Shown here one piece after another: positions 2,767 through 44,651 of a DNA stretch of 45,190 bases. Made by a program: the position numbers and the translations under genes. How positions within the stretch are numbered: position 1 is the first letter of the stretch; every line of letters begins with the position of its first letter. The notes below the pieces were generated by a model. That model saw only the letters and a list, made by a program, of their open reading frames with translations. It was not told the origin of the DNA and made no database searches. Where the stretch lies: the sequence record PZ050807.1. One strand, given 5' to 3'. The DNA is from a phage.

Positions 2767-3339
2767 TTGTGCGGATTCCCAGTCTATCTTTCGGCGTATT
2801 GTAGGACTTTCGAAATACTCTTTGCCGTCTACTTCAACCAAAGGCCAGTCGTTCACAATGGCGTATGGATCTGCGACCTCTTCGATTATGCCGGTGGCTT
2901 TATGCTGACCAAACCCTACCAGCACCAGAATCACCCCGGCAACGCGACGCTCCATATACTCGTATGCGCAACGTGCTTCAACCAGACCGCGACGGATGCC
3001 GGTAGTGGCCTTCACTTCGTACGACCAGACGGCATCAATAACTTGGTCTTTGTAATCCGGCCCTACTTTCACTTTGCGCTTACCAAGCATTACCACATCG
3101 CCACGGTTCATGGTGTTGCCGCTAAATAATCCGGTGCGCTGGAGTAAGCCTTGCGGGATGCAACTGCGACCGCCGGTTTGCCCTTCCAGATACATCCCTG
3201 CGAACATCTCGCCAAGTACACCAACGAGACGGCTTTGCTTGCACGCGTCGGAACGGTTACGCCAGTAGTCAAACTCAATGCTTGCAATCAACGATGCCAG
3301 ATGAAATGCTTTGCCAGATAATTCATATTCACCGTACAT
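2764..3339 (-). CDS. Hypothetical protein, 191 aa (last gene of the leftward early operon)
   Basis: Long ORF with RBS AAGGAG 8 nt upstream of the ATG at 3339; no motif recognised. Confidence 0.55.
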   Translation of the reverse strand: MYGEYELSGKAFHLASLIASIEFDYWRNRSDACKQSRLVGVLGEMFAGMYLEGQTGGRSCIPQGLLQRTGLFSGNTMNRGDVVMLGKRKVKVGPDYKDQVIDAVWSYEVKATTGIRRGLVEARCAYEYMERRVAGVILVLVGFGQHKATGIIEEVADPYAIVNDWPLVEVDGKEYFESPTIRRKIDWESAQ

Positions 3340-3383: not shown

Positions 3384-3854
3384 TTATTTAAGTGCGCCAG
3401 TCACCAGTGTTTTTTCCATGTTGCGGAAATCTTCCGGCGTCATGAGGATTTTCGACCCGTCTTCACCGTACAGCGTCACCAGCGGTTGAGCTTTCGCTAA
3501 AACTCCCTTCGGCAGCGACCACGCATCAACCTGTTTCTTCAGGCTTTCCAACTGCGCTGCCGTTACGTCGATCTGGATCTCGTCATGCACAGTTGTGTAA
3601 GACTCACCCAGTAGCGCGGAATATGCCACTAAATCCACAATGTTATCTTCCTGGTGTTTACGGGTCTGGCGTACCAGCTTCAGGCAAATCATAAATACCC
3701 AGGCTTCTTGCTCGGTAAGGTCCCGACCGGTTAGTGCGTTGAATACGGCAGCAATCTGTTTAGCGCTGCGTTCTTCTTTGCTGTCATATCCATTTTCTTT
3801 CCCGCGCTGTTCCATAGTGGTGGCGGCGTTTTTGCAGTATTCGAATGCTTTCAT
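3384..3854 (-). CDS. Hypothetical protein, 156 aa (possibly an all-alpha NTP-pyrophosphohydrolase-like fold; weak)
   Basis: ORF directly downstream of the early promoter at 3900..3928; the segment EQEAWVFMICLKLVRQ...DNIVDLVAY is faintly MazG-like. Confidence 0.5.
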   Translation of the reverse strand: MKAFEYCKNAATTMEQRGKENGYDSKEERSAKQIAAVFNALTGRDLTEQEAWVFMICLKLVRQTRKHQEDNIVDLVAYSALLGESYTTVHDEIQIDVTAAQLESLKKQVDAWSLPKGVLAKAQPLVTLYGEDGSKILMTPEDFRNMEKTLVTGALK

Positions 3855-3894
3855 GGTTTATCTCCTTGATGGGCGGCGGTATTGCCTCCCGATG

Positions 3895-3932
3895 TGGTTA
3901 ATATAGTGCAACCAAATACGGATTGCAACCAA
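3895..3932 (-). promoter_or_regulatory. Sigma70-type early promoter (minus strand): -35 TTGCAA, 17-nt spacer ending in ATTGGTTGCAC, -10 TATATT
   Basis: Read on the minus strand: TTGCAA(3928..3923)-17 nt-TATATT(3905..3900); two copies of the TTGGTTGCA motif. Confidence 0.55.
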
Positions 3933-4154
3933 TTATTTTAATTCCTCAATCAAATTGGCACGGACAATACGGGCCGAGAAGGCATCGCACACAAGATGGC
4001 AACGCGCCGTCATGACAAGCCAGCCGGTTAGGTCACGGCCTAGCAATTGCTCCGGGCGGCTTACCCGCAATACTTTATTTCCAGGGAAAACCAGGTAACG
4101 TTTAATGATCTCATCCACGACGCGCGGACTGCGATCGACGACTAAGATATTCAT
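3933..4154 (-). CDS. Hypothetical protein, 73 aa
   Basis: Strong RBS AAGGAGA upstream of the ATG at 4154; overlaps the 3' end of the methyltransferase ORF by 44 nt. Confidence 0.45.
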   Translation of the reverse strand: MNILVVDRSPRVVDEIIKRYLVFPGNKVLRVSRPEQLLGRDLTGWLVMTARCHLVCDAFSARIVRANLIEELK

Positions 4155-5071: not shown

Positions 5072-5310
5072 TATTTAGTCTCCGTCATGCGAATCTCATT
5101 TTGTGGGATAAATTTGCCGTTCATCTCTACCCAGCAGGATCCGTACCGCCACTGGGTGTTACGACCGGTTTGCTCCGCATACACAGTCACGCATTCGTAC
5201 TTCTTGAAGTAATACGTGCAGGAGGAAGGCATAATGATGCAAAAAACAACTAATAGCATCCACACCCATAACCGCAAAGCACCGTCGTAATCTAAAAAGA
5301 ATCGTTTCAT
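5071..5310 (-). CDS. Small secreted or membrane protein, 79 aa, with its own early promoter
   Basis: Hydrophobic N-terminus (LRLWVWMLLVVFCIIMPSSC); RBS GAGGA; promoter directly upstream. Confidence 0.45.
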   Translation of the reverse strand: MKRFFLDYDGALRLWVWMLLVVFCIIMPSSCTYYFKKYECVTVYAEQTGRNTQWRYGSCWVEMNGKFIPQNEIRMTETK

Positions 5311-5352
5311 CGTCAAATCCTCATATTAAAAAAGGGCGTTCCCTTCAGAACA

Positions 5353-5390
5353 CCCCCAATATAATGCAACCAATCTCGCAATGCAACCAA
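5353..5390 (-). promoter_or_regulatory. Sigma70-type early promoter (minus strand) of the TTGGTTGCA family
   Basis: Minus strand: TTGCAT(5386..5381)-17 nt-TATATT(5363..5358); two TTGGTTGCA copies. Confidence 0.55.
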
Positions 5391-17454: not shown

Positions 17455-17461
17455 AATTTGC

Positions 17462-17542
17462 GCGCATTGGTTGCCAATATGGTTAATTTGTGCGCGCATT
17501 GGTTGCCAGATTGGGCATTAAATCTATATCGCATTGGTTGCC
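17462..17542 (+). repeat. Three direct iterons GCGCATTGGTTGCC spaced about 35 bp apart (candidate origin or operator array)
   Basis: Repeat copies at 17462, 17494 and 17530, immediately after the primase-helicase stop. Confidence 0.6.
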
Positions 17543-17755: not shown

Positions 17756-17907
17756 AGCTCTGGTTGCATAATCAACGGCAGCATAGTGAAAAATGCGGCG
17801 GGGGTAGATCTCGGCAACCAATGCGAGTTGAAGAGTGGAGAGTGAAAAATGCAGTTTGCAATTGCAACTCATAGCGATCAGCATTTTCATGCGCGTGATT
17901 AATATTG

Positions 17908-17936
17908 GTTGCACCCACCTTGGCACCTTGCTATAT
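17908..17936 (+). promoter_or_regulatory. Rightward promoter of the TTGGTTGCA family: -35 TTGCAC, 17 nt, -10 TATATT
   Basis: TTGCAC(17908..17913)-17 nt-TATATT(17931..17936). Confidence 0.5.
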
Positions 17937-17965
17937 TGGCTGCACACCATCATGAGGACTGAACA

Positions 17966-18292
17966 ATGAAAAAATTAATCTGGGTTTACGCGTTGGCGGT
18001 GGCTAAGGAGCAAGAAGCGGCAGCGTATATCACCCCGTGCAGTTATGCAGTCGAACGCTTGGAAGCGGCCCAGGCCGTTGTCCGGGTGATGAAGCGCGCA
18101 ATCATCGGTAGGCTGGAGGACCGATTCGACACGATGGCAGAGATCCAGCCACTGGCGAACGCAATCCAGGACTACGCGCTTGCATTTGCCCGTGAACGCC
18201 TGGCATACCGGTTTGGTATCGGGGAAACGGCAGTGGCTAACATCGCCCGCATTCAGGCCCAGCGTGAGCTGCACGCCATACTCGCGAAATAA
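17966..18292 (+). CDS. Hypothetical protein, 108 aa
   Basis: ORF downstream of the promoter. Confidence 0.5.
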   Translation: MKKLIWVYALAVAKEQEAAAYITPCSYAVERLEAAQAVVRVMKRAIIGRLEDRFDTMAEIQPLANAIQDYALAFARERLAYRFGIGETAVANIARIQAQRELHAILAK

Positions 18293-26153: not shown

Positions 26154-27240
26154 CCAACGACTGGCGGATCGCATGATTCGCCGTCACATCTTCACCCAGC
26201 GCCTGAGCAATGAGCAGGCGCGTAAAGTGCTGGCAATGTGGCAAAAATTCCGTCCTACGTTACTGGGTAAGCTGACCGAATTACTTGAGGGCAAGAAGTC
26301 AATGAGCAATAAGGCGCTTACCACTCTGCTAACCCAAATCGACAAAACGGTTAAGACCGAACTGCGCGACGAGTTTAAAGTGCTGGCTGAAGGTCTGGCG
26401 GAGTTTGCCGATACCGAGGCTGAATATCTGACCAACACATTAACGGCAGCACTGCAACCTGCGCTTTCAGTCCCTGCCGTTGAGGTGGTTGGTGTAGTGA
26501 CCGGTGCGCAGATTGCAGCGACGGCTATGAAAAATCCATTCCAGGGCAACACGCTTATGCAATGGCCTGATTCTCTGTCAGAATGGACCAGAACGCAGAT
26601 CAGCAATCAGGTGCGCGCCGGATTTATCCAGGGCAAACCTACTATGCAAATTATTGCGGACGTCAAGCGCGCGTTGGGCGGTCGTAGCGCGCAGGCCATT
26701 TCAAGCGTGGTCAAGTCCGCAGTCAACCACTATGCGGCGACCGCACGCGAATTAATGGTAAAAGCAAATGATGATATTCTCGACGGTCGCCAGTGGCTTT
26801 CTACACTGGATACTCACACCTCAACGCTCTGTCAGTTACGCGATCGCCTGTTTTATCCGGTTGATGTTACCCCCGAAACAAAAGGGAAACGGGACGGGAA
26901 AGTGGTGGCTGGATCACAGTATGGCGCTGGTCCGGGCAAGCTACATTATTGTTGCCGTTCTACCGAGACGTGGAAAGTCAAGGGTATGGAAGATTGGCCC
27001 AGTGGTAAGCGTCCGGCACTGAAGGCCGAAGCGGGTAAACTGCTAAGTGAGCAGGTCAGTGCTAAGACGGACTTCTTCTCCTGGGTACAGCGCCAGCCGC
27101 GGCATATCCTTGAGGAATTATACGGAGTGCAGCGCGCGGACCAGATCTTGCGGGGCGTGAAAGTTCCGACCATGTTTAACGACGCGGGCGAGCTTATGAC
27201 GATTCAACAACTGAAAAATAAGGGGTTATGGCGTGATTAA
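26131..27240 (+). CDS. Head morphogenesis (minor head) protein
   Basis: Synteny (portal-adjacent), 369 aa. Confidence 0.5.
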   Translation: MTMPRKINQRLADRMIRRHIFTQRLSNEQARKVLAMWQKFRPTLLGKLTELLEGKKSMSNKALTTLLTQIDKTVKTELRDEFKVLAEGLAEFADTEAEYLTNTLTAALQPALSVPAVEVVGVVTGAQIAATAMKNPFQGNTLMQWPDSLSEWTRTQISNQVRAGFIQGKPTMQIIADVKRALGGRSAQAISSVVKSAVNHYAATARELMVKANDDILDGRQWLSTLDTHTSTLCQLRDRLFYPVDVTPETKGKRDGKVVAGSQYGAGPGKLHYCCRSTETWKVKGMEDWPSGKRPALKAEAGKLLSEQVSAKTDFFSWVQRQPRHILEELYGVQRADQILRGVKVPTMFNDAGELMTIQQLKNKGLWRD

Positions 27241-27541
27241 ATACGCAGCAGTCGGATTGATTCTCGGCCTTGTAATTGGGTTCTGGCAAGGTGACAACTA
27301 TCGTGCTGGCGTGGTGGCGGAGGCGGCGCAGGAAGCGCAAGCCAAAGCCCAACGGCAGCAAACTAAGGTAATCCATGAGTCGGTACAGAAAGAGCAGGCC
27401 CGCGAAGTGGAGTTCCGCACAGTTGAGAAAGAGGTGATTAAATATGTCACGCGTCCTGATCGCGATAATTGTAAGTTTGATGCTGACCGCGTGCGGATCA
27501 AGCAACGTGCCGTTGATGCCGCTAACGGAATCAGCAATTAA
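27233..27541 (+). CDS. i-spanin (Rz-like)
   Basis: N-terminal transmembrane helix MIKYAAVGLILGLVIGFW followed by a charged coiled coil; contains the start of the overlapping o-spanin. Confidence 0.55.
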   Translation: MIKYAAVGLILGLVIGFWQGDNYRAGVVAEAAQEAQAKAQRQQTKVIHESVQKEQAREVEFRTVEKEVIKYVTRPDRDNCKFDADRVRIKQRAVDAANGISN

Positions 27542-27674
27542 GCCGCCGTGTAAGTTTGAGTCGCCATCGGAAGATCCGGACGAAGATTTAGCGATTGATG
27601 TGCGAAATATGAAATGCGGGGCGGAGTTAAGGGCACAAGTGCTGGATTTGCAGAAATTAATTAAGGGGCCGTAA
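27444..27674 (+). CDS. o-spanin (Rz1-like outer-membrane lipoprotein)
   Basis: Signal peptide with lipobox LTAC-G, Pro-rich; starts inside Rz in the +1 frame (overlapped architecture). Confidence 0.55.
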   Translation: MSRVLIAIIVSLMLTACGSSNVPLMPLTESAIKPPCKFESPSEDPDEDLAIDVRNMKCGAELRAQVLDLQKLIKGP

Positions 27675-27687
27675 TGGCCCCTTTCTA
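27664..27687. terminator. Bidirectional intrinsic terminator
   Basis: AGGGGCC-GTAAT-GGCCCCT followed by TTCTATT; same stem as the terminators at 2743 and 43357. Confidence 0.65.
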
Positions 27688-28449
27688 TTAGCGCGGAATA
27701 CCGCAGATTTCGTTTAGTGTCTTCACGTCAAGCGCTACTGCCGTTGACTTCTTCTCTTCCTGCGGGATGAACTGTTTCACTTCAGGCCATGCCTTAATAA
27801 GTTTGGTGTCTGTAGTGTACTTATTCAGAGTACCCATAACTGACAATTTAAACTCATCGTATTTAGCACGTAAATCGCGGCGCGCCTTGTCGTTCTTATC
27901 CAGACGTTTGCAAAATTCATGCTCTGCCGGGTAATCTGCACGACCGCGAGGCTTGTAGATCGGCACTTGCTCACCTTCCGCGTTAATTTCCACCAGCGCC
28001 GTAAGTAGCGCAGTTTCAAACCCAGGTACGATTTCGCCAATGTCCGGGGCCATCGAGTTATTGTAGCGGTCTTCCCAGTAGCCTCGGTGACAGCGGCTGC
28101 TGTAGTTATCACCGCTCAATGACAGTGTGCGGATGTTACCACCCATGTTGACTTCGAACGTTGCATCGTACACAGCACCAATGCCGTGGGGCATGTCCTT
28201 GTTATGGCTGAAGGTTGCACGGCTGGCGTACACGCTTATGCTAAACATGCCGTTATTTGTGTCTTGATAGCTGCGCATCATTTTCTGCAACCCAACGAAG
28301 CTGGTAACACCTTTCGGCATCTGATCCAGAGTGATAGCCAGCGCCAGGTCGCGCGATTCGGTCATTAACTTTTTGGCCTGCTTCGTGATTTCGTGGCCTG
28401 CCAGGATGTTAGCCAGGATTTGCTTTTTAATGTCTTTAGTCAGTCTCAT
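27688..28449 (-). CDS. Hypothetical protein, 253 aa; inverted single-gene cassette inside the head module
   Basis: Start at MRLTKDIK (ATG 28449, RBS AGGAAACAACA); own early-type promoter and terminator. Confidence 0.5.
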   Translation of the reverse strand: MRLTKDIKKQILANILAGHEITKQAKKLMTESRDLALAITLDQMPKGVTSFVGLQKMMRSYQDTNNGMFSISVYASRATFSHNKDMPHGIGAVYDATFEVNMGGNIRTLSLSGDNYSSRCHRGYWEDRYNNSMAPDIGEIVPGFETALLTALVEINAEGEQVPIYKPRGRADYPAEHEFCKRLDKNDKARRDLRAKYDEFKLSVMGTLNKYTTDTKLIKAWPEVKQFIPQEEKKSTAVALDVKTLNEICGIPR

Positions 28450-28479
28450 TGTTGTTTCCTCGTTTGTTGGTGTGCAACC

Positions 28480-28508
28480 AATATATTGCAACCAATTAGC
28501 CAATGCAA
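28480..28508 (-). promoter_or_regulatory. Early-type promoter (minus strand): -35 TTGCAT, 17 nt with ATTGGTTGCAA, -10 TATATT
   Basis: Minus strand: TTGCAT(28508..28503)-17 nt-TATATT(28485..28480). Confidence 0.5.
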
Positions 28509-28515
28509 GCAAATT

Positions 28516-28544
28516 TTGTGATTATTTTTATCACTGATAATATT
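28516..28544 (+). promoter_or_regulatory. Candidate promoter for the scaffold/capsid genes: TTGTGA-17 nt-TAATAT
   Basis: Hexamer match by eye. Confidence 0.4.
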
Positions 28545-28598
28545 AAGGGCGTGAAGTCGAGCGGGTGGCCCGCTCTGCCACAATCCCTGGGGGATGTT

Positions 28599-29303
28599 AT
28601 GAAACTGACTAAAGCAGAATATGACGCGTTGCCTGAAGGCATGAAAGCATTGTTTGTTGCCGATGGTGACGGGTACAAGGCGACGTTTATGACCGCCGAA
28701 GAAGTACAGGCCGAGATCAAAGGTCTGAAGGATAACAACGCGAAGCTGGTAGGCGAGAAAAAGGCAGAAGCCGAACGCCGTGCCGAAGCGGAGCGACTCG
28801 CTAAAGAGAAAGAGGAAGCCGCAGCGCGCAAGAACGGCGACCTTGAAGCGATCGATAAGTCCTGGCAGGACAAGTTTACTAAATACGATGCGGATACGAA
28901 GGGCAAAATCGAAGCCTACCGCAAACAGATTCACGATCTTACCATCGGCAGCACTGCCAAAGACCTGGCATCAAAGCTGTTCGGTAAGAACGCTGGCATT
29001 ATGCAACGCCACGTCATGGACCGCCTTGCGCTGGAAGAAGGCGAAGACGGCAGTCTGAAAGTGCGCGTATTGCAGGACGGCAAACCATCCGCACTGACTA
29101 TGGAAGAACTGGAGAAAGAGTTCCGTAGTAACGAAGATTTCGCGTCCGTCCTGGCGGGTACGCCTGCCGGTGGTGCGCCGAGCAAACCGACCCATGTAAT
29201 CGACGATCCGAAATCTAAGATTCAGATGGGTCATAGCTTCGGCATCACTGACTTGACCAAACAGGCCAGCGATATTATCGCCAAACTGGGCGACGACGAG
29301 TAA
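28599..29303 (+). CDS. Scaffolding protein candidate
   Basis: Charged coiled coil (AEAERRAEAERLAKEKEEAAARK), immediately upstream of the major capsid gene. Confidence 0.5.
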   Translation: MKLTKAEYDALPEGMKALFVADGDGYKATFMTAEEVQAEIKGLKDNNAKLVGEKKAEAERRAEAERLAKEKEEAAARKNGDLEAIDKSWQDKFTKYDADTKGKIEAYRKQIHDLTIGSTAKDLASKLFGKNAGIMQRHVMDRLALEEGEDGSLKVRVLQDGKPSALTMEELEKEFRSNEDFASVLAGTPAGGAPSKPTHVIDDPKSKIQMGHSFGITDLTKQASDIIAKLGDDE

Positions 29304-43356: not shown

Positions 43357-43380
43357 AGGGGCCGTTTGGCCCCTTTCTTA
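43357..43380. terminator. Bidirectional intrinsic terminator
   Basis: AGGGGCC-GTTT-GGCCCCT followed by TTCTT; same stem as the terminators at 2743 and 27664. Confidence 0.65.
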
Positions 43381-44343
43381 ATACATATTAGGAAGGACAA
43401 TCAGCGGTGTTGGTACGACAACATTGCGGTTAGGCATCTGGAATTGCTGCCGTGAATAGTTGCCAATGACGCGGTTTTTCGCTGCACCAACGACGCTACC
43501 CGCCATGCGTATCCCGTTCATGCGTACGTGGTTATAACCGCTATTGTTTTCAATAAGCGCGCCCGTGTATGAAAGCTGAATAAGGCTGTTACCGATATTC
43601 TGCCACCCTGCGCTAAGGTCAACCGTCCCGTTAAACACAAACGGCTTATTGACGGTGGAGAATGTAACCTGGCCTGCGTTGTTGGTCATCGTGATACCGG
43701 TTCCGGGGCTTGGCGGTGTGTTATTGAATATAACCAATTCCATGTCAACGGCAGCACCCACATCATCAATCCCGCCGTAAGCCGCATTGCGGACGATAAT
43801 ACTGCCTCCATCGAAGCCAACCGACACGTTAGGGTCATCCCAACGGGCGAACGGAACACCTCCGACCGGCAGCGGCATACTTCCGTTCACATGGACGCGC
43901 TGCGCGTAGCGACAGGTCATCAGCCGAGCGACGTTTGATATGGCGGTGAAGTCCGTCGAGTTAGCCACCAGAAGCCCAGCATTACGCGACCCCACCGGCA
44001 GCACTTCCATAATCGTTCCCGCCCAGGTTGGAAGCCCGCTATAAGCGCCCAGCGCGTCAGCACCGTGCAGCGTAATTCCGCCATCACCATTTCGAGATAT
44101 TGACGTTACAAACATCGGATCGGGTATTACCAGTGTTTGGTCGAACACTTCCACCACTTCAACGGGATTAGTTAGCACGACTATAAGCTGCGATCCAGGC
44201 GTTAGCGGAGTATTGACTGTTAGCGTCTTGTCAGATTGGCAGCGCTGATTAAAATTGGTACAAAAAGACGGAGCACGAAGCCCCGCCGTAATTTCCATTC
44301 TTGGACGCCCATCGTTGTATTCGATAAGGATACCTGCACCCAT
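43378..44343 (-). CDS. Beta-rich hypothetical protein, 321 aa; inverted cassette between J and the tail-fibre genes
   Basis: G/N/T/V-rich with no catalytic motif; RBS GGGAG; co-transcribed with the upstream lipoprotein gene. Confidence 0.5.
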   Translation of the reverse strand: MGAGILIEYNDGRPRMEITAGLRAPSFCTNFNQRCQSDKTLTVNTPLTPGSQLIVVLTNPVEVVEVFDQTLVIPDPMFVTSISRNGDGGITLHGADALGAYSGLPTWAGTIMEVLPVGSRNAGLLVANSTDFTAISNVARLMTCRYAQRVHVNGSMPLPVGGVPFARWDDPNVSVGFDGGSIIVRNAAYGGIDDVGAAVDMELVIFNNTPPSPGTGITMTNNAGQVTFSTVNKPFVFNGTVDLSAGWQNIGNSLIQLSYTGALIENNSGYNHVRMNGIRMAGSVVGAAKNRVIGNYSRQQFQMPNRNVVVPTPLIVLPNMY

Positions 44344-44345
44344 AA

Positions 44346-44570
44346 TTACCACTCCCGTGATTTAACTGATACCGTACCAGAGAAGTTACCGTCTGAATCT
44401 GCCGCCAAACCGGTGAATCGCATGTCAATGTCTCCGGCAGCGACCTTTTGCCCGTCAACATAACGCAACATGCAGCTTCCCGCAACGTAGGTAACGCAAT
44501 CGCCATTATGACGCTCAACAGCACAACCAGACAGCATAGCAACGACTAAAATACTTAATAAAGTTTTCAT
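44346..44570 (-). CDS. Small lipoprotein, 74 aa (candidate superinfection-exclusion factor, Llp/Cor-like by context)
   Basis: Signal peptide MKTLLSILVVAMLSGC with canonical lipobox LSG-C; strong RBS AAAGGAGA; early-type promoter upstream. Confidence 0.55.
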   Translation of the reverse strand: MKTLLSILVVAMLSGCAVERHNGDCVTYVAGSCMLRYVDGQKVAAGDIDMRFTGLAADSDGNFSGTVSVKSREW

Positions 44571-44599
44571 GGTATCATCTCCTTTGTTTTGACAACTTA

Positions 44600-44628
44600 A
44601 ATATAGTGCAACCAATACGTGATTGCAA
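44600..44628 (-). promoter_or_regulatory. Early-type promoter (minus strand): -35 TTGCAA, 17 nt with ATTGGTTGCAC, -10 TATATT
   Basis: Minus strand: TTGCAA(44628..44623)-17 nt-TATATT(44605..44600). Confidence 0.55.
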
Positions 44629-44651
44629 CCAATTTATGAGGAGTTTTCGCT

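What the first reader, a model, noticed from the sequence alone, without database searches (positions are those of the whole stretch)
27688..28510. Single-gene inverted insert with its own early promoter in the middle of the head-morphogenesis operon
A 253-aa minus-strand gene interrupts the plus-strand run portal / head protein / spanins / scaffold / capsid. It has an early-type TTGGTTGCA promoter (28480..28508), a bidirectional terminator (27664..27687) and a good RBS. The protein (MRLTKDIKKQILANILAGHEITKQ...) has no motif I recognise. The insulated, oppositely oriented, early-expressed arrangement is typical of morons and host-takeover or anti-defence genes.
Basis: partly seen in the sequence, partly recalled or inferred. 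Interest (0 to 1): 0.65.

Follow-up and report, generated by a model that had tools for sequence, protein, structure and literature searches.

The report
Nmad5 accessory gene cassette in Dhillonvirus
The inverted gene in the head operon of this E. coli phage is a real, separately transcribed accessory gene of the known Nmad5 family; it has already been studied in sister phages for its link to the Tmn defence system, and its mechanism is still unknown.

Summary
A 253-aa minus-strand gene (27688..28449) sits between the spanins and the scaffold gene. It has a GAGGA ribosome-binding site, a promoter of a type that recurs in this genome, and a hairpin terminator shared with the convergent spanin gene. 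The window is a Dhillonvirus genome, 99.9% identical to phage Ioannina across this locus. The protein does have a recognisable family: Pfam Nmad5 (E=8e-43), and Ioannina annotates it that way. In sister phages nmad5 is published as dispensable and apparently toxic to clone, and a K216E-equivalent change escapes the Tmn defence. About 90% of Dhillonviruses carry the gene, so it is not a sporadic moron. The slot does behave as an accessory cassette: a conserved promoter and terminator bracket variable cargo, the gene has been lost independently several times, and a more distant Klebsiella relative has no insert. The gene evolves faster than its neighbours but is under purifying selection. I found no enzyme-like fold and no conserved catalytic residue set. 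What is conserved is an N-terminal helix and a C-terminal WPE…LNxxxG[LI]P module that contains K216. In other phages the family sits beside replication genes. My best reading is a non-enzymatic early adaptor at the interface of replication and defence. This is already known and of moderate interest.

The parts
27688..28449 (-). Nmad5-family gene, 253 aa plus TAA stop
   Evidence: ORF and translation. Pfam PF18757 E=8e-43 over the full length. PHROG 1965. dN/dS 0.09-0.22, so it is a coding gene under purifying selection.
28457..28461 (-). Ribosome-binding site GAGGA, 7 nt before the ATG
   Evidence: Read from the sequence. The AACGAGGA element is kept in all relatives, including those where Nmad5 is the second gene of the cassette.
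28480..28508 (-). Sigma-70-type promoter: -35 TTGCAT (28508-28503), 17-nt spacer, -10 TATATT (28485-28480)
   Evidence: Sequence. Same layout at three other minus-strand sites in the window. Conserved across Dhillonviruses whatever the cargo. Not called by the generic scan. Activity and timing untested.
28473..28512 (-). Three direct copies of TTG(G/C)TTGCA that frame the promoter and the start of the leader
   Evidence: Motif search: 31 hits against 12.4 expected, 0 of 100 shuffles as high. Contexts.
27663..27683 (.). G+C-rich hairpin between the convergent Rz1 and Nmad5 genes, a probable terminator for both strands
   Evidence: Scan hit on the minus strand. About -15.5 kcal/mol on both strands. 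Annotated as a terminator on both strands in HK578 and on the plus strand in PTXU06.
27691..27729 (-). Codons for residues 241-253 (DVKTLNEICGIPR), the C-terminal tail motif and the most conserved part of the protein
   Evidence: Zero entropy across 38 genus members. L245 and N246 are 97-99% conserved, G250 and P252 83-85%, across 144 family members. Preceded by a low-confidence linker at residues 232-240 in the AF2 model.
27781..27810 (-). Codons for residues 214-223 (DTKLIKAWPE): a conserved helix plus the WPE motif. K216 (27802-27804) is the position of the published Tmn-escape change.
   Evidence: L217, W221, P222 and E223 are 89-99% conserved family-wide, and the preceding T213 (codon 27811-27813, just outside this part) is 89% conserved. 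K216 aligns with K216 of the 254-aa alleles. K216E and K296E escape Tmn (PMC11846954).
27233..27674 (+). Overlapping Rz and Rz1 spanin genes (27233-27541 and 27444-27674), the last plus-strand genes before the cassette
   Evidence: PHROG 2536 (E=1e-30) and PHROG 5672 (E=2e-22).
28450..28598 (.). Conserved divergent control region. Besides the Nmad5 promoter it holds a possible plus-strand promoter (TTGTGA 28516-28521, 16 nt, TAATAT 28538-28543) and a leader hairpin (28559-28575) ahead of the scaffold gene.
   Evidence: Near-identical in 7 Dhillonviruses with different cargo. Hairpin fold (z-score not significant). The plus-strand promoter is my reading of the sequence and is untested.
28599..29303 (+). 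Head scaffolding gene, where the plus-strand head operon resumes
   Evidence: PHROG 206 E=1e-47. Relatives annotate the 234-aa form.

Best explanation
The element is a self-contained accessory cassette. It has its own promoter (28480-28508), one gene, and a hairpin terminator shared with the convergent spanin gene. It lies inverted between the spanin genes and the scaffold gene of a Dhillonvirus.

Its cargo is an Nmad5-family protein (Pfam PF18757). This is the orthologue, as a divergent allele, of the nmad5 gene studied in phages SMA8 and SMS22.

Shown here:
- Family membership, and the promoter, ribosome-binding site and terminator anatomy.
- Near-universal presence in the genus, with repeated loss.
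- Variable co-cargo in the same slot.
- Faster evolution than the neighbouring genes, but under purifying selection.
- A predicted fold with no counterpart among solved structures.
- Conservation concentrated in the N-terminal helix and in a C-terminal module (residues about 213-253: T..xL...WPE.....P, a linker, then LNxxxG[LI]P at the very end) that contains K216.

Published: the gene is dispensable, it is apparently toxic when cloned, and K216E (K296E in the long annotation) lets the phage escape Tmn, whereas deleting the gene does not.

Inferred mechanism: host RNA polymerase transcribes the gene independently of the head operon, probably from the start of infection. The protein is not an enzyme. 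It is an adaptor whose helical-hairpin scaffold and flexible, invariant C-terminal peptide dock onto a conserved partner in DNA replication or nucleotide metabolism. The variable beta-rich middle domain sets specificity. This interaction perturbs host DNA metabolism, which would explain the toxicity, and it changes what defence systems such as Tmn see or do. K216E alters the conserved docking surface, which makes it a change of function rather than a loss of function.
For: Identity:
- Pfam Nmad5 at 147 bits, full length. PHROG 1965.
- The locus (1401 bases, 27400-28800) is 99.9% identical to phage Ioannina, which annotates the gene as Nmad5.

Cassette:
- The promoter family recurs four times on the minus strand.
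- The control region is conserved whatever the cargo. Terminator.
- Cargo variants: Nmad5 alone; an extra 109-aa or 135-aa gene upstream; a DnaN-like 170-184-aa gene downstream of Nmad5 or in its place.
- Losses: HK578 keeps only 4 codons, Teewinot keeps 35 codons, and SM_S24 is truncated at about residue 172.
- Empty site in Klebsiella phage Fuzzy_ER39.

Evolution:
- 63% amino-acid identity to other alleles, against 88-91% for the flanking head genes.
- dN/dS 0.09-0.22 against 0.02-0.09 for the neighbours.

Not enzyme-like:
- A profile search of PDB sequences finds nothing.
- BFVD returns only other Nmad5 proteins.
- Across 144 members the positions conserved at 70% or more are R2, L3, I11, A36, G104, G113, T213, L217, W221, P222, E223, P229, A239, L245, N246, G250, I251 (as L) and P252. 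There is no His/Asp/Cys/Lys/Ser set.
- The middle domain varies in length, with occupancy 0.1-0.7.

Docking tail:
- It always ends at the very C-terminus across 618 family clusters.
- It is invariant within the genus.
- It follows a low-confidence linker in the model.

Replication theme in other phages:
- Between ThyX and exonuclease/primase in Ithacavirus.
- Overlapping the start of PolA in Acinetobacter phage Scuro.
- Between helicase and primase in Jilinvirus.
- After helicase-primase in phage eiAU.
- In the lambdoid pL operon just after N.
- Next to the hydroxymethylase and polymerase in Yuavirus.

Defence link and dispensability: PMC11846954.
Against: - No partner was identified. Complex prediction with host proteins was not possible with these tools.
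- Lack of similarity to known folds does not exclude a new enzyme. E223, R2, T213 and N246 are conserved polar residues.
- Expression timing was not measured, and the same promoter type also heads the lipoprotein cassette in the tail-fibre region.
- The published toxicity may be confounded. The SMS22 clone appears to have used the 334-aa annotation, since the numbering is K296. That version carries 240 bp of upstream sequence, which includes the divergent promoter region.
- The replication-gene neighbourhoods are a handful of hand-inspected examples, not a statistical survey.
Confidence: 0.5

Rival explanations
1. Nmad5 is a DNA base-modification enzyme, or an essential accessory of one, as its Pfam name and the wording of the Tmn paper imply. 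On this view Tmn senses the modified DNA.
For: - The family was named for its association with base-modification genes (Iyer et al. 2013, cited in PMC11846954; I could not read that paper).
- In Yuavirus SN1 and PAE1 the gene sits between aGPT-Pplase1 and the pyrimidine hydroxymethylase.
- In Ithacavirus it is next to ThyX.
- This Dhillonvirus genome encodes Dam-like and Dcm-like methyltransferases elsewhere.
Against: - In this genome it is flanked by head and lysis genes. No hydroxymethylase, aGPT-Pplase, kinase or radical-SAM gene is annotated anywhere in the near-identical Ioannina genome.
- Most carriers in the phage collection are not annotated with any hypermodification genes at the loci I inspected: Dhillonvirus about 150 records, lambdoid and Stx phages about 60-75, Vibrio about 36.
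- BASEL Dhillonviruses carry Nmad5 (Oekolampad, GeorgBuechner, KarlBarth) yet are described as sensitive to type I and II restriction compared with the 7-deazaguanine phages.
- There is no enzyme-like fold and no conserved catalytic residue set.
- Deleting nmad5 does not change Tmn sensitivity. That is hard to reconcile with Tmn sensing an Nmad5-made modification.
Confidence: 0.15
2. Nmad5 is simply the phage protein that Tmn recognises directly (the trigger), and K216E removes the recognised surface.
For: - Two independent escape lineages hit the same residue, and reverting it restores sensitivity.
- K216 lies on the most conserved surface helix, which is a good target for pattern recognition.
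- There is a precedent in the same genus: Ksap1 is a small protein sensed directly by KpAvs2.
Against: - Deleting nmad5 leaves the phage Tmn-sensitive. A sole trigger should give escape when deleted.
- SM_S24 naturally lacks the whole C-terminal module and is reported as still inhibited by Tmn.
- The authors themselves suggest the change confers a new function.
Confidence: 0.15
3. It is a dedicated anti-defence protein. Its normal target is another host immune system, and K216E broadens or shifts its specificity to include Tmn.
For: - It is an accessory cassette with its own promoter.
- It is the fastest-evolving gene in its neighbourhood and exists as deeply divergent alleles, 63% identity with saturated dS.
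- Variability is concentrated in the surface-exposed middle domain.
- It has been lost repeatedly in nature.
- Escape is by a gain of function.
- The lambdoid homologue occupies the place just after N where, from my own knowledge of lambda (not tested here), ral and sieB lie.
Against: - No match to PADLOC models, although that library does not cover anti-defence proteins.
- No target is known.
- In virulent phages outside the genus the gene is embedded in replication modules rather than in anti-defence islands.
- dN/dS is well below 1.
Confidence: 0.2
4. It is a head-assembly or virion protein, as its position inside the head module would suggest.
For: Only its location between the portal, head-morphogenesis and spanin genes on one side and the scaffold and capsid genes on the other.
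Against: - It has the opposite orientation and its own promoter and terminator.
- No similarity to any structural family.
- The deletion mutant is viable.
- Natural genomes lacking it include the type phage HK578.
- Homologues in other phages sit in early or replication regions.
Confidence: 0.03

Closest known systems
nmad5 of Dhillonvirus phages SMA8 and SMS22 (Yamashita et al., Commun Biol 2025, PMC11846954)
   Same: Same genus and the same locus, minus strand between the spanins and the scaffold gene (SM_S22 and SM_A8 appear in the locus survey). Same Pfam family, same length class (253 against 254 aa), K216 conserved. Their phenotypes should carry over: dispensable, apparently toxic to clone, and K216E escapes Tmn.
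   Different: The window allele, shared with LM40P1 and Ioannina, is only about 63% identical in amino-acid sequence to the majority allele group represented by five relatives (BF9, McMelon, PTXU06, SM_A2, WF5505), with saturated synonymous divergence. I did not align SMA8 or SMS22 directly. SMA8 carries an extra small gene in the cassette, and the window does not. The 'longer N-terminus' reported for SMS22 matches an 80-codon upstream extension of the annotation: 334 aa in the sister phage McMelon, and K296 - K216 = 80. It is probably not a real difference.
Nmad5 of Yuavirus phages (M6, SN1, PAE1), inside the thymidine-hypermodification gene cluster
   Same: Same Pfam family. Shares the N-terminal helix and the C-terminal WPE…LN…GLP module.
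   Different: About 186 aa, without the enlarged middle domain. Only the last 80 or so residues align by tblastn. It is embedded among aGPT-Pplase, kinase, radical-SAM and hydroxymethylase genes. None of these is annotated in the near-identical Ioannina genome.
Nmad5-like early protein of lambdoid and Stx phages (e.g. mEp235, HK542)
   Same: Same family, 36-37% identity over residues 156-252. An accessory-type position in an early transcription unit.
   Different: 207 aa. Encoded in the pL operon after N in a temperate phage that uses the host replisome. Not an inverted cassette.
Classical phage morons (Hendrix-type insertions in late operons of lambdoid phages); this comparison rests on my own knowledge
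   Same: An independent promoter-gene-terminator unit sitting between genes of a conserved structural operon, and absent from a more distant relative that has the same operon.
   Different: Present in about 90% of the genus and ancestral to it. The host phage is, as far as known, virulent, so there is no prophage expression. The slot exchanges cargo behind a fixed promoter rather than being a one-off insertion.

Membership tests
Pfam PF18757 Nmad5 | Full-length match to the family HMM above the curated gathering score | tested here: met
   147.3 bits against a cut-off of 27, E=8e-43, residues 1-252 on profile positions 1-206 of 206. 618 cluster representatives recovered with a clade profile.
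Pfam PF18757 Nmad5 | Family signature: N-terminal (M)RLT..I...I..N helix and C-terminal T...L...WPE.....P …LN...G[LI]P ending at the C-terminus | tested here: met
   All of these positions are present in the window protein and are 70-99% conserved across 144 members.
Pfam PF18757 Nmad5 | Gene-neighbourhood association with DNA base-modification genes, which is the basis of the family's name | tested here: not met
   The neighbours are spanin and scaffold genes. No hydroxymethylase, aGPT-Pplase, kinase or radical-SAM gene is annotated in the near-identical Ioannina genome. The association does hold in Yuavirus. This is a contextual feature, not a sequence criterion, so sequence membership stands.
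Pfam PF18757 Nmad5 | A biochemical role in nucleotide or DNA modification | not testable with these tools
   No enzyme-like fold or catalytic residue set was found. Needs nucleoside LC-MS and enzymology.
Dhillonvirus nmad5 / Tmn-escape locus (PMC11846954) | Orthologous position next to the scaffold and capsid genes, and the conserved lysine at the escape position | tested here: met
   Synteny with SM_S22, SM_A8 and SM_A2. K216 aligns and is at least 90% conserved in the clade.
Dhillonvirus nmad5 / Tmn-escape locus (PMC11846954) | Tmn sensitivity of this phage, and escape through K216E | not testable with these tools
   Requires plating on Tmn-expressing E. coli.
Moron (independent transcription unit inserted in a conserved operon) | Own promoter and terminator bracketing the gene | tested here: met
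   Promoter family. Hairpin terminator. Sequence-level evidence only.
Moron (independent transcription unit inserted in a conserved operon) | Sporadic presence or absence among close relatives | tested here: not met
   Present in about 146-148 of about 159-163 records. The absences are secondary deletions or replacements. Absent only in more distant relatives.
Anti-defence protein | Demonstrated inhibition of a host immune system by the wild-type protein | not testable with these tools
   Indirect evidence only: gain-of-function escape from Tmn in sister phages, fast evolution, repeated loss.
Phage head structural or assembly proteins | Homology to a known structural family, or being essential for virion formation | tested here: not met
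   No structural-family hits. The deletion is viable. Natural genomes lack the gene.

The most novel reading that the evidence does not exclude
Nmad5 is mis-named. On this reading it is a widespread family of non-enzymatic early phage adaptors, at least 618 clusters at 50% identity. They would use an invariant C-terminal peptide (LNxxxG[LI]P) together with the adjacent WPE helix to dock onto a conserved bacterial replication or DNA-metabolism component. In Dhillonvirus that interface would also be what decides the outcome of Tmn (KAP NTPase) immunity. Identifying the partner would then reveal both a new host-takeover target and the signal that Tmn monitors.
Probability: 0.3. Interest if true: 0.6.

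Novelty: already known. Interest (0 to 1): 0.33.

Why it matters
The gene itself is not a discovery. It is annotated in a 99.9%-identical genome and has been studied genetically in sister phages.

What still matters is that a widespread phage family carries a functional label, 'DNA modification enzyme', that none of the evidence here supports for Dhillonviruses, while its real mechanism is unknown.

Three results make the question testable. The published Tmn-escape residue lies in the family's most conserved module. Natural truncations that remove this module do not give escape. The family sits beside replication genes in unrelated phages. Together these point to a pull-down of the 253-aa protein, with and without its C-terminal tail and K216E, which could reveal both its host target and what Tmn senses.

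There is also a practical use. The conserved promoter and terminator slot tolerates different cargo in nature, so it is a natural place to insert payloads in engineered therapeutic Dhillonviruses.

Tried and rejected
- Generic sigma-70 scan: it did not call the promoter because the -35 matches only 3 of 6. I relied on its recurrence in the genome and its conservation in relatives instead.
- The afdb50 fold library was unavailable.
- The Iyer et al. 2013 paper that defined Nmad5 could not be read. What I say about the origin of the name rests on its citation in PMC11846954, on Pfam's name for the family, and on my own recollection.
I used annotated phage records for genomic contexts instead.
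- Ksap1, the KpAvs2 trigger of Dhillonviruses, was considered as possibly the same gene. It is not: it is a 74-aa protein encoded between a methyltransferase gene and a phosphatase gene.
- I looked for the C-terminal motif in every reading frame of the window, in case it is a docking peptide shared by several proteins. It occurs only in Nmad5.
- I compared the tail with beta-clamp-binding motifs (QL[SD]LF and similar) from memory. There is no convincing match because it lacks the glutamine, so I make no such claim.
Full report
WHAT THE WINDOW IS. Across this locus (1401 bases, 27400-28800) the window is 100% identical to Dhillonvirus LM40P1 and 99.9% identical to Escherichia phage Ioannina. 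At 45,190 bases it matches the size of those roughly 45-kb genomes, so it is in effect a circularly permuted Dhillonvirus genome, a small E. coli siphovirus of the HK578 group. Window position is about Ioannina position + 22,662.

THE OBSERVATION.
- Gene: a minus-strand ORF with ATG at 28449 and a TAA stop at 27688-27690 encodes 253 aa beginning MRLTKDIKKQ. GAGGA lies 7 nt upstream of the ATG.
- Promoter: the minus strand reads TTGCAT, 17 nt, TATATT (28508-28480). It is embedded in three direct copies of TTG(G/C)TTGCA.
- A generic consensus scan missed this promoter. However, the same layout, AAA-TTGGTTGCA-N8-TTGGTTGCA-nTATATT, stands 40-60 nt upstream of three other minus-strand ORFs, at 44632, 5390 and 3932.
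- The motif is strongly over-represented: 31 hits against 12.4 expected, with 0 of 100 shuffles as high.
- The whole 149-bp control region between this gene and the scaffold gene is nearly invariant in seven relatives.
- Terminator: an 8-bp G+C-rich hairpin at 27663-27683 lies between the convergent Rz1 and Nmad5 stop codons and folds at about -15.5 kcal/mol on either strand. The same hairpin is annotated as a terminator on both strands in HK578.
- Flanks: head morphogenesis protein, Rz and Rz1 spanins, scaffold (true start 28599) and capsid.
- 'Early' timing is an inference. The same promoter type also drives a minus-strand lipoprotein cassette in the tail-fibre region, at the place where the BASEL paper puts the receptor-binding-protein locus of small siphoviruses.

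WHAT THE GENE IS. It also matches PHROG 1965, of unknown function. Ioannina annotates it as Nmad5.

The literature search found a paper on exactly this gene in this genus (Yamashita et al. 2025, PMC11846954). Its findings are:
- Escape mutants of phages SMA8 and SMS22 on Tmn-expressing E. coli carry K216E and K296E in nmad5.
- Reverting the change restores sensitivity, and engineering it in confers escape.
- Deleting nmad5 gives a viable phage that is still Tmn-sensitive.
- The gene could not be cloned, which the authors attribute to toxicity.

K216 is present and conserved in the window protein. The 80-residue offset between K216 and K296 equals the 80-codon upstream extension seen in the 334-aa annotation of the sister phage McMelon. 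That extension runs through the promoter region. The MRLT N-terminus is conserved across the family, so the 253/254-aa form is the real product.

MORON TEST.
- tblastn finds a full-length copy (at least 60% identity) in about 146-148 phage records. About 159-163 records have a Dhillonvirus-type capsid. A locus survey found 159 records, 138 of them with the whole locus. The gene is therefore near-universal in the genus.
- The slot is nevertheless plastic. I classified a spread sample of about 57 informative records by the length of the matched span and spot-checked a few by annotation. About 22 have Nmad5 alone, as the window does. About 24 have an extra gene of about 360 bp upstream of Nmad5, 2 have a 135-aa gene there, and 2 have a DnaN-like gene downstream.
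- Five records lack an intact Nmad5. AV129 and TheodorHerzl carry only the DnaN-like gene. Teewinot keeps 35 codons. SM_S24 is truncated at about residue 172. HK578, the type phage, keeps only ATG AGA CTG ACG next to the terminator.
- These remnants show that Nmad5 is ancestral to the genus and has been lost repeatedly.
- Farther out, Klebsiella phage Fuzzy_ER39 has the same head module with the head-morphogenesis and scaffold genes adjacent. Pectobacterium phage Pappous has unrelated small genes and a tRNA at that junction.
- The junction is therefore an insertion hot spot. In Dhillonviruses it has become a fixed promoter-terminator bracket that exchanges cargo.

EVOLUTION. Against five relatives the window's Nmad5 is 62-63% identical in amino-acid sequence, while head morphogenesis is 88-89% and scaffold 89-91%. 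Among those five relatives Nmad5 averages 89%, against 97-98% for the two neighbours. dN/dS is 0.09-0.22 for Nmad5 and 0.02-0.09 for the neighbours. Synonymous divergence of the window allele is saturated at 1.4-2.5, against 0.8-0.97 for the neighbours. This points to a functional protein with relaxed or diversifying pressure, and an allele that was probably imported by recombination. Within the genus the variability lies in residues 51-90 and 111-120. The last 13 residues are invariant.

STRUCTURE AND CONSERVATION. AlphaFold2 on a 22-sequence alignment gave pLDDT 86.4 and pTM 0.80. The model has these parts:
- an N-terminal helix (5-16);
- a long helical hairpin (20-42 paired with 178-208) that carries a beta-rich middle domain;
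- short helices at 214-227;
- a low-confidence linker (232-240);
- a short terminal helix (242-248).

A profile search of 1.84 billion cluster representatives finds 618 members, mostly 170-235 aa. They match the N-terminal helix and the last 90 or so residues, always to the very C-terminus. In an alignment of 144 members the positions conserved at 70% or more are R2, L3, I11, A36, G104, G113, T213, L217, W221, P222, E223, P229, A239, L245, N246, G250, I251 (as L) and P252. The middle domain has occupancy as low as 0.1. Nothing resembles a catalytic set. The escape residue K216 sits in the most conserved stretch (T213-E223).

CONTEXT IN OTHER PHAGES.
- Yuavirus (SN1, PAE1): between aGPT-Pplase1 and the pyrimidine hydroxymethylase, near the DNA polymerase.
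- Ithacavirus: ThyX, then Nmad5, then exonuclease and primase.
- Acinetobacter phage Scuro: overlapping the start of PolA.
- Jilinvirus: between helicase and primase.
- Phage eiAU: after the helicase-primase gene.
- Lambdoid mEp235: in the pL operon just after N.
- Vibrio phages: among small, unannotated genes.

The common theme is early genes for DNA replication and nucleotide metabolism, not base modification specifically. BASEL Dhillonviruses that carry Nmad5 are described as restriction-sensitive relative to phages with modified DNA. The Ioannina annotation lists only ordinary Dam-type and Dcm-type methyltransferases.

HOW IT MOST LIKELY WORKS. Shown: an autonomous cassette that encodes a dispensable, fast-evolving Nmad5 protein whose conserved surface contains the Tmn-escape residue. 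Inferred, at about 0.5 confidence overall: it is expressed independently of the head operon, probably early, and acts as a non-enzymatic adaptor. Its invariant C-terminal peptide and WPE helix bind a conserved partner in replication or DNA metabolism, and the variable middle domain tunes specificity. K216E would change this interface. That fits the facts that deletion, and the natural C-terminal truncation in SM_S24, do not give escape from Tmn.

Rivals: a DNA-modification enzyme (0.15), a direct Tmn trigger (0.15), a dedicated anti-defence protein (0.2, and this overlaps with the best model), and a head protein (0.03).

Caveat: the published toxicity may be confounded, because the clone probably used the long annotation, which includes the promoter region.

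VERDICT. The gene and its locus are already known. My additions are the cassette anatomy and its natural variants, the evidence against the enzyme label, and the mapping of the escape residue onto the conserved C-terminal module. Interest is moderate to low, 0.33.

Noticed in passing
window 44570-44632, 5310-5390 and 3854-3932 (all minus strand), and 17905-17970 (plus strand): There is a family of near-identical promoters, AAA-TTGGTTGCA-N8-TTGGTTGCA-nTATATT. The Nmad5 promoter and the plus-strand one at 17905 also share a leader (TATATTGG(T/C)TGCACACCA…GAGGA…ACAATG). The direct-repeat layout with 17-bp spacing could also be an operator for a phage regulator.
   Followed up: partly
window 17460-17542 (+): Three spaced copies of …GCATTGGTTGCC, the first two as GCGCGCATTGGTTGCC, at 32-35 bp intervals. 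They lie in an intergenic region upstream of the plus-strand promoter at 17905. This may be a regulator-binding array or an origin-like repeat.
   Followed up: no
window about 43380-44632 (-): A second inverted cassette with the same promoter type lies inside the tail module. It holds a 74-aa lipoprotein (MKTLLSILVVAMLSGC…) followed by a gene of about 320 aa. It sits where the BASEL paper places the receptor-binding-protein locus of small siphoviruses.
   Followed up: partly
window 3933-4154 (-): A 73-aa ORF (MNILVVDRSPRVV…) lies between a methyltransferase-like gene and the next promoter. In size and position it fits Ksap1, the Dhillonvirus protein sensed by KpAvs2 (PMC11564622). I did not compare the sequences.
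   Followed up: no
window 27233-27674 (+): The Rz and Rz1 spanin genes sit in the head module, about 6.5 kb from the holin and endolysin genes (around 19.6-20.7 kb). The Klebsiella relative with the same head module has no gene between head morphogenesis and scaffold, so the spanins belong to the same inserted segment as the Nmad5 cassette.
   Followed up: partly
L010 (McMelon) 1763-2767; SM_S22: Nmad5 is annotated as 334 aa in McMelon because of an 80-codon in-frame upstream extension that runs through the divergent promoter and overlaps the scaffold gene. This accounts for the K296 numbering in SMS22 against K216 in SMA8 in the Tmn paper. It may also confound the cloning-toxicity result.
   Followed up: yes
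L021 (HK578) 1030-1095; L020 (SM_S24) 1013-1567: The type phage HK578 keeps only the ribosome-binding site and the first four codons of Nmad5, fused to the terminator. SM_S24 encodes an Nmad5 truncated at about residue 172, which lacks the whole conserved C-terminal module, and it is reported as still Tmn-sensitive.
   Followed up: yes
L003 (AV129) 2768-3280; L012 (WF5505) 1240-1794: An alternative or additional cargo of the cassette is a protein of 170-184 aa with weak similarity to the central domain of the DnaN sliding clamp (Pfam E=2e-4, TIGR00663 E=1e-5). PHROG 3007 labels it 'RusA-like resolvase'. It occurs in about 16 Dhillonvirus records and about 220 other phage records, many of which annotate it as a DNA polymerase III beta or sliding-clamp protein.
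   Followed up: partly
window 28559-28575 (+): A perfect 7-bp hairpin (GAGCGGG-TGG-CCCGCTC) in the leader of the scaffold and capsid transcript is conserved across the genus. Its folding z-score is not significant and its function is unknown.
   Followed up: partly
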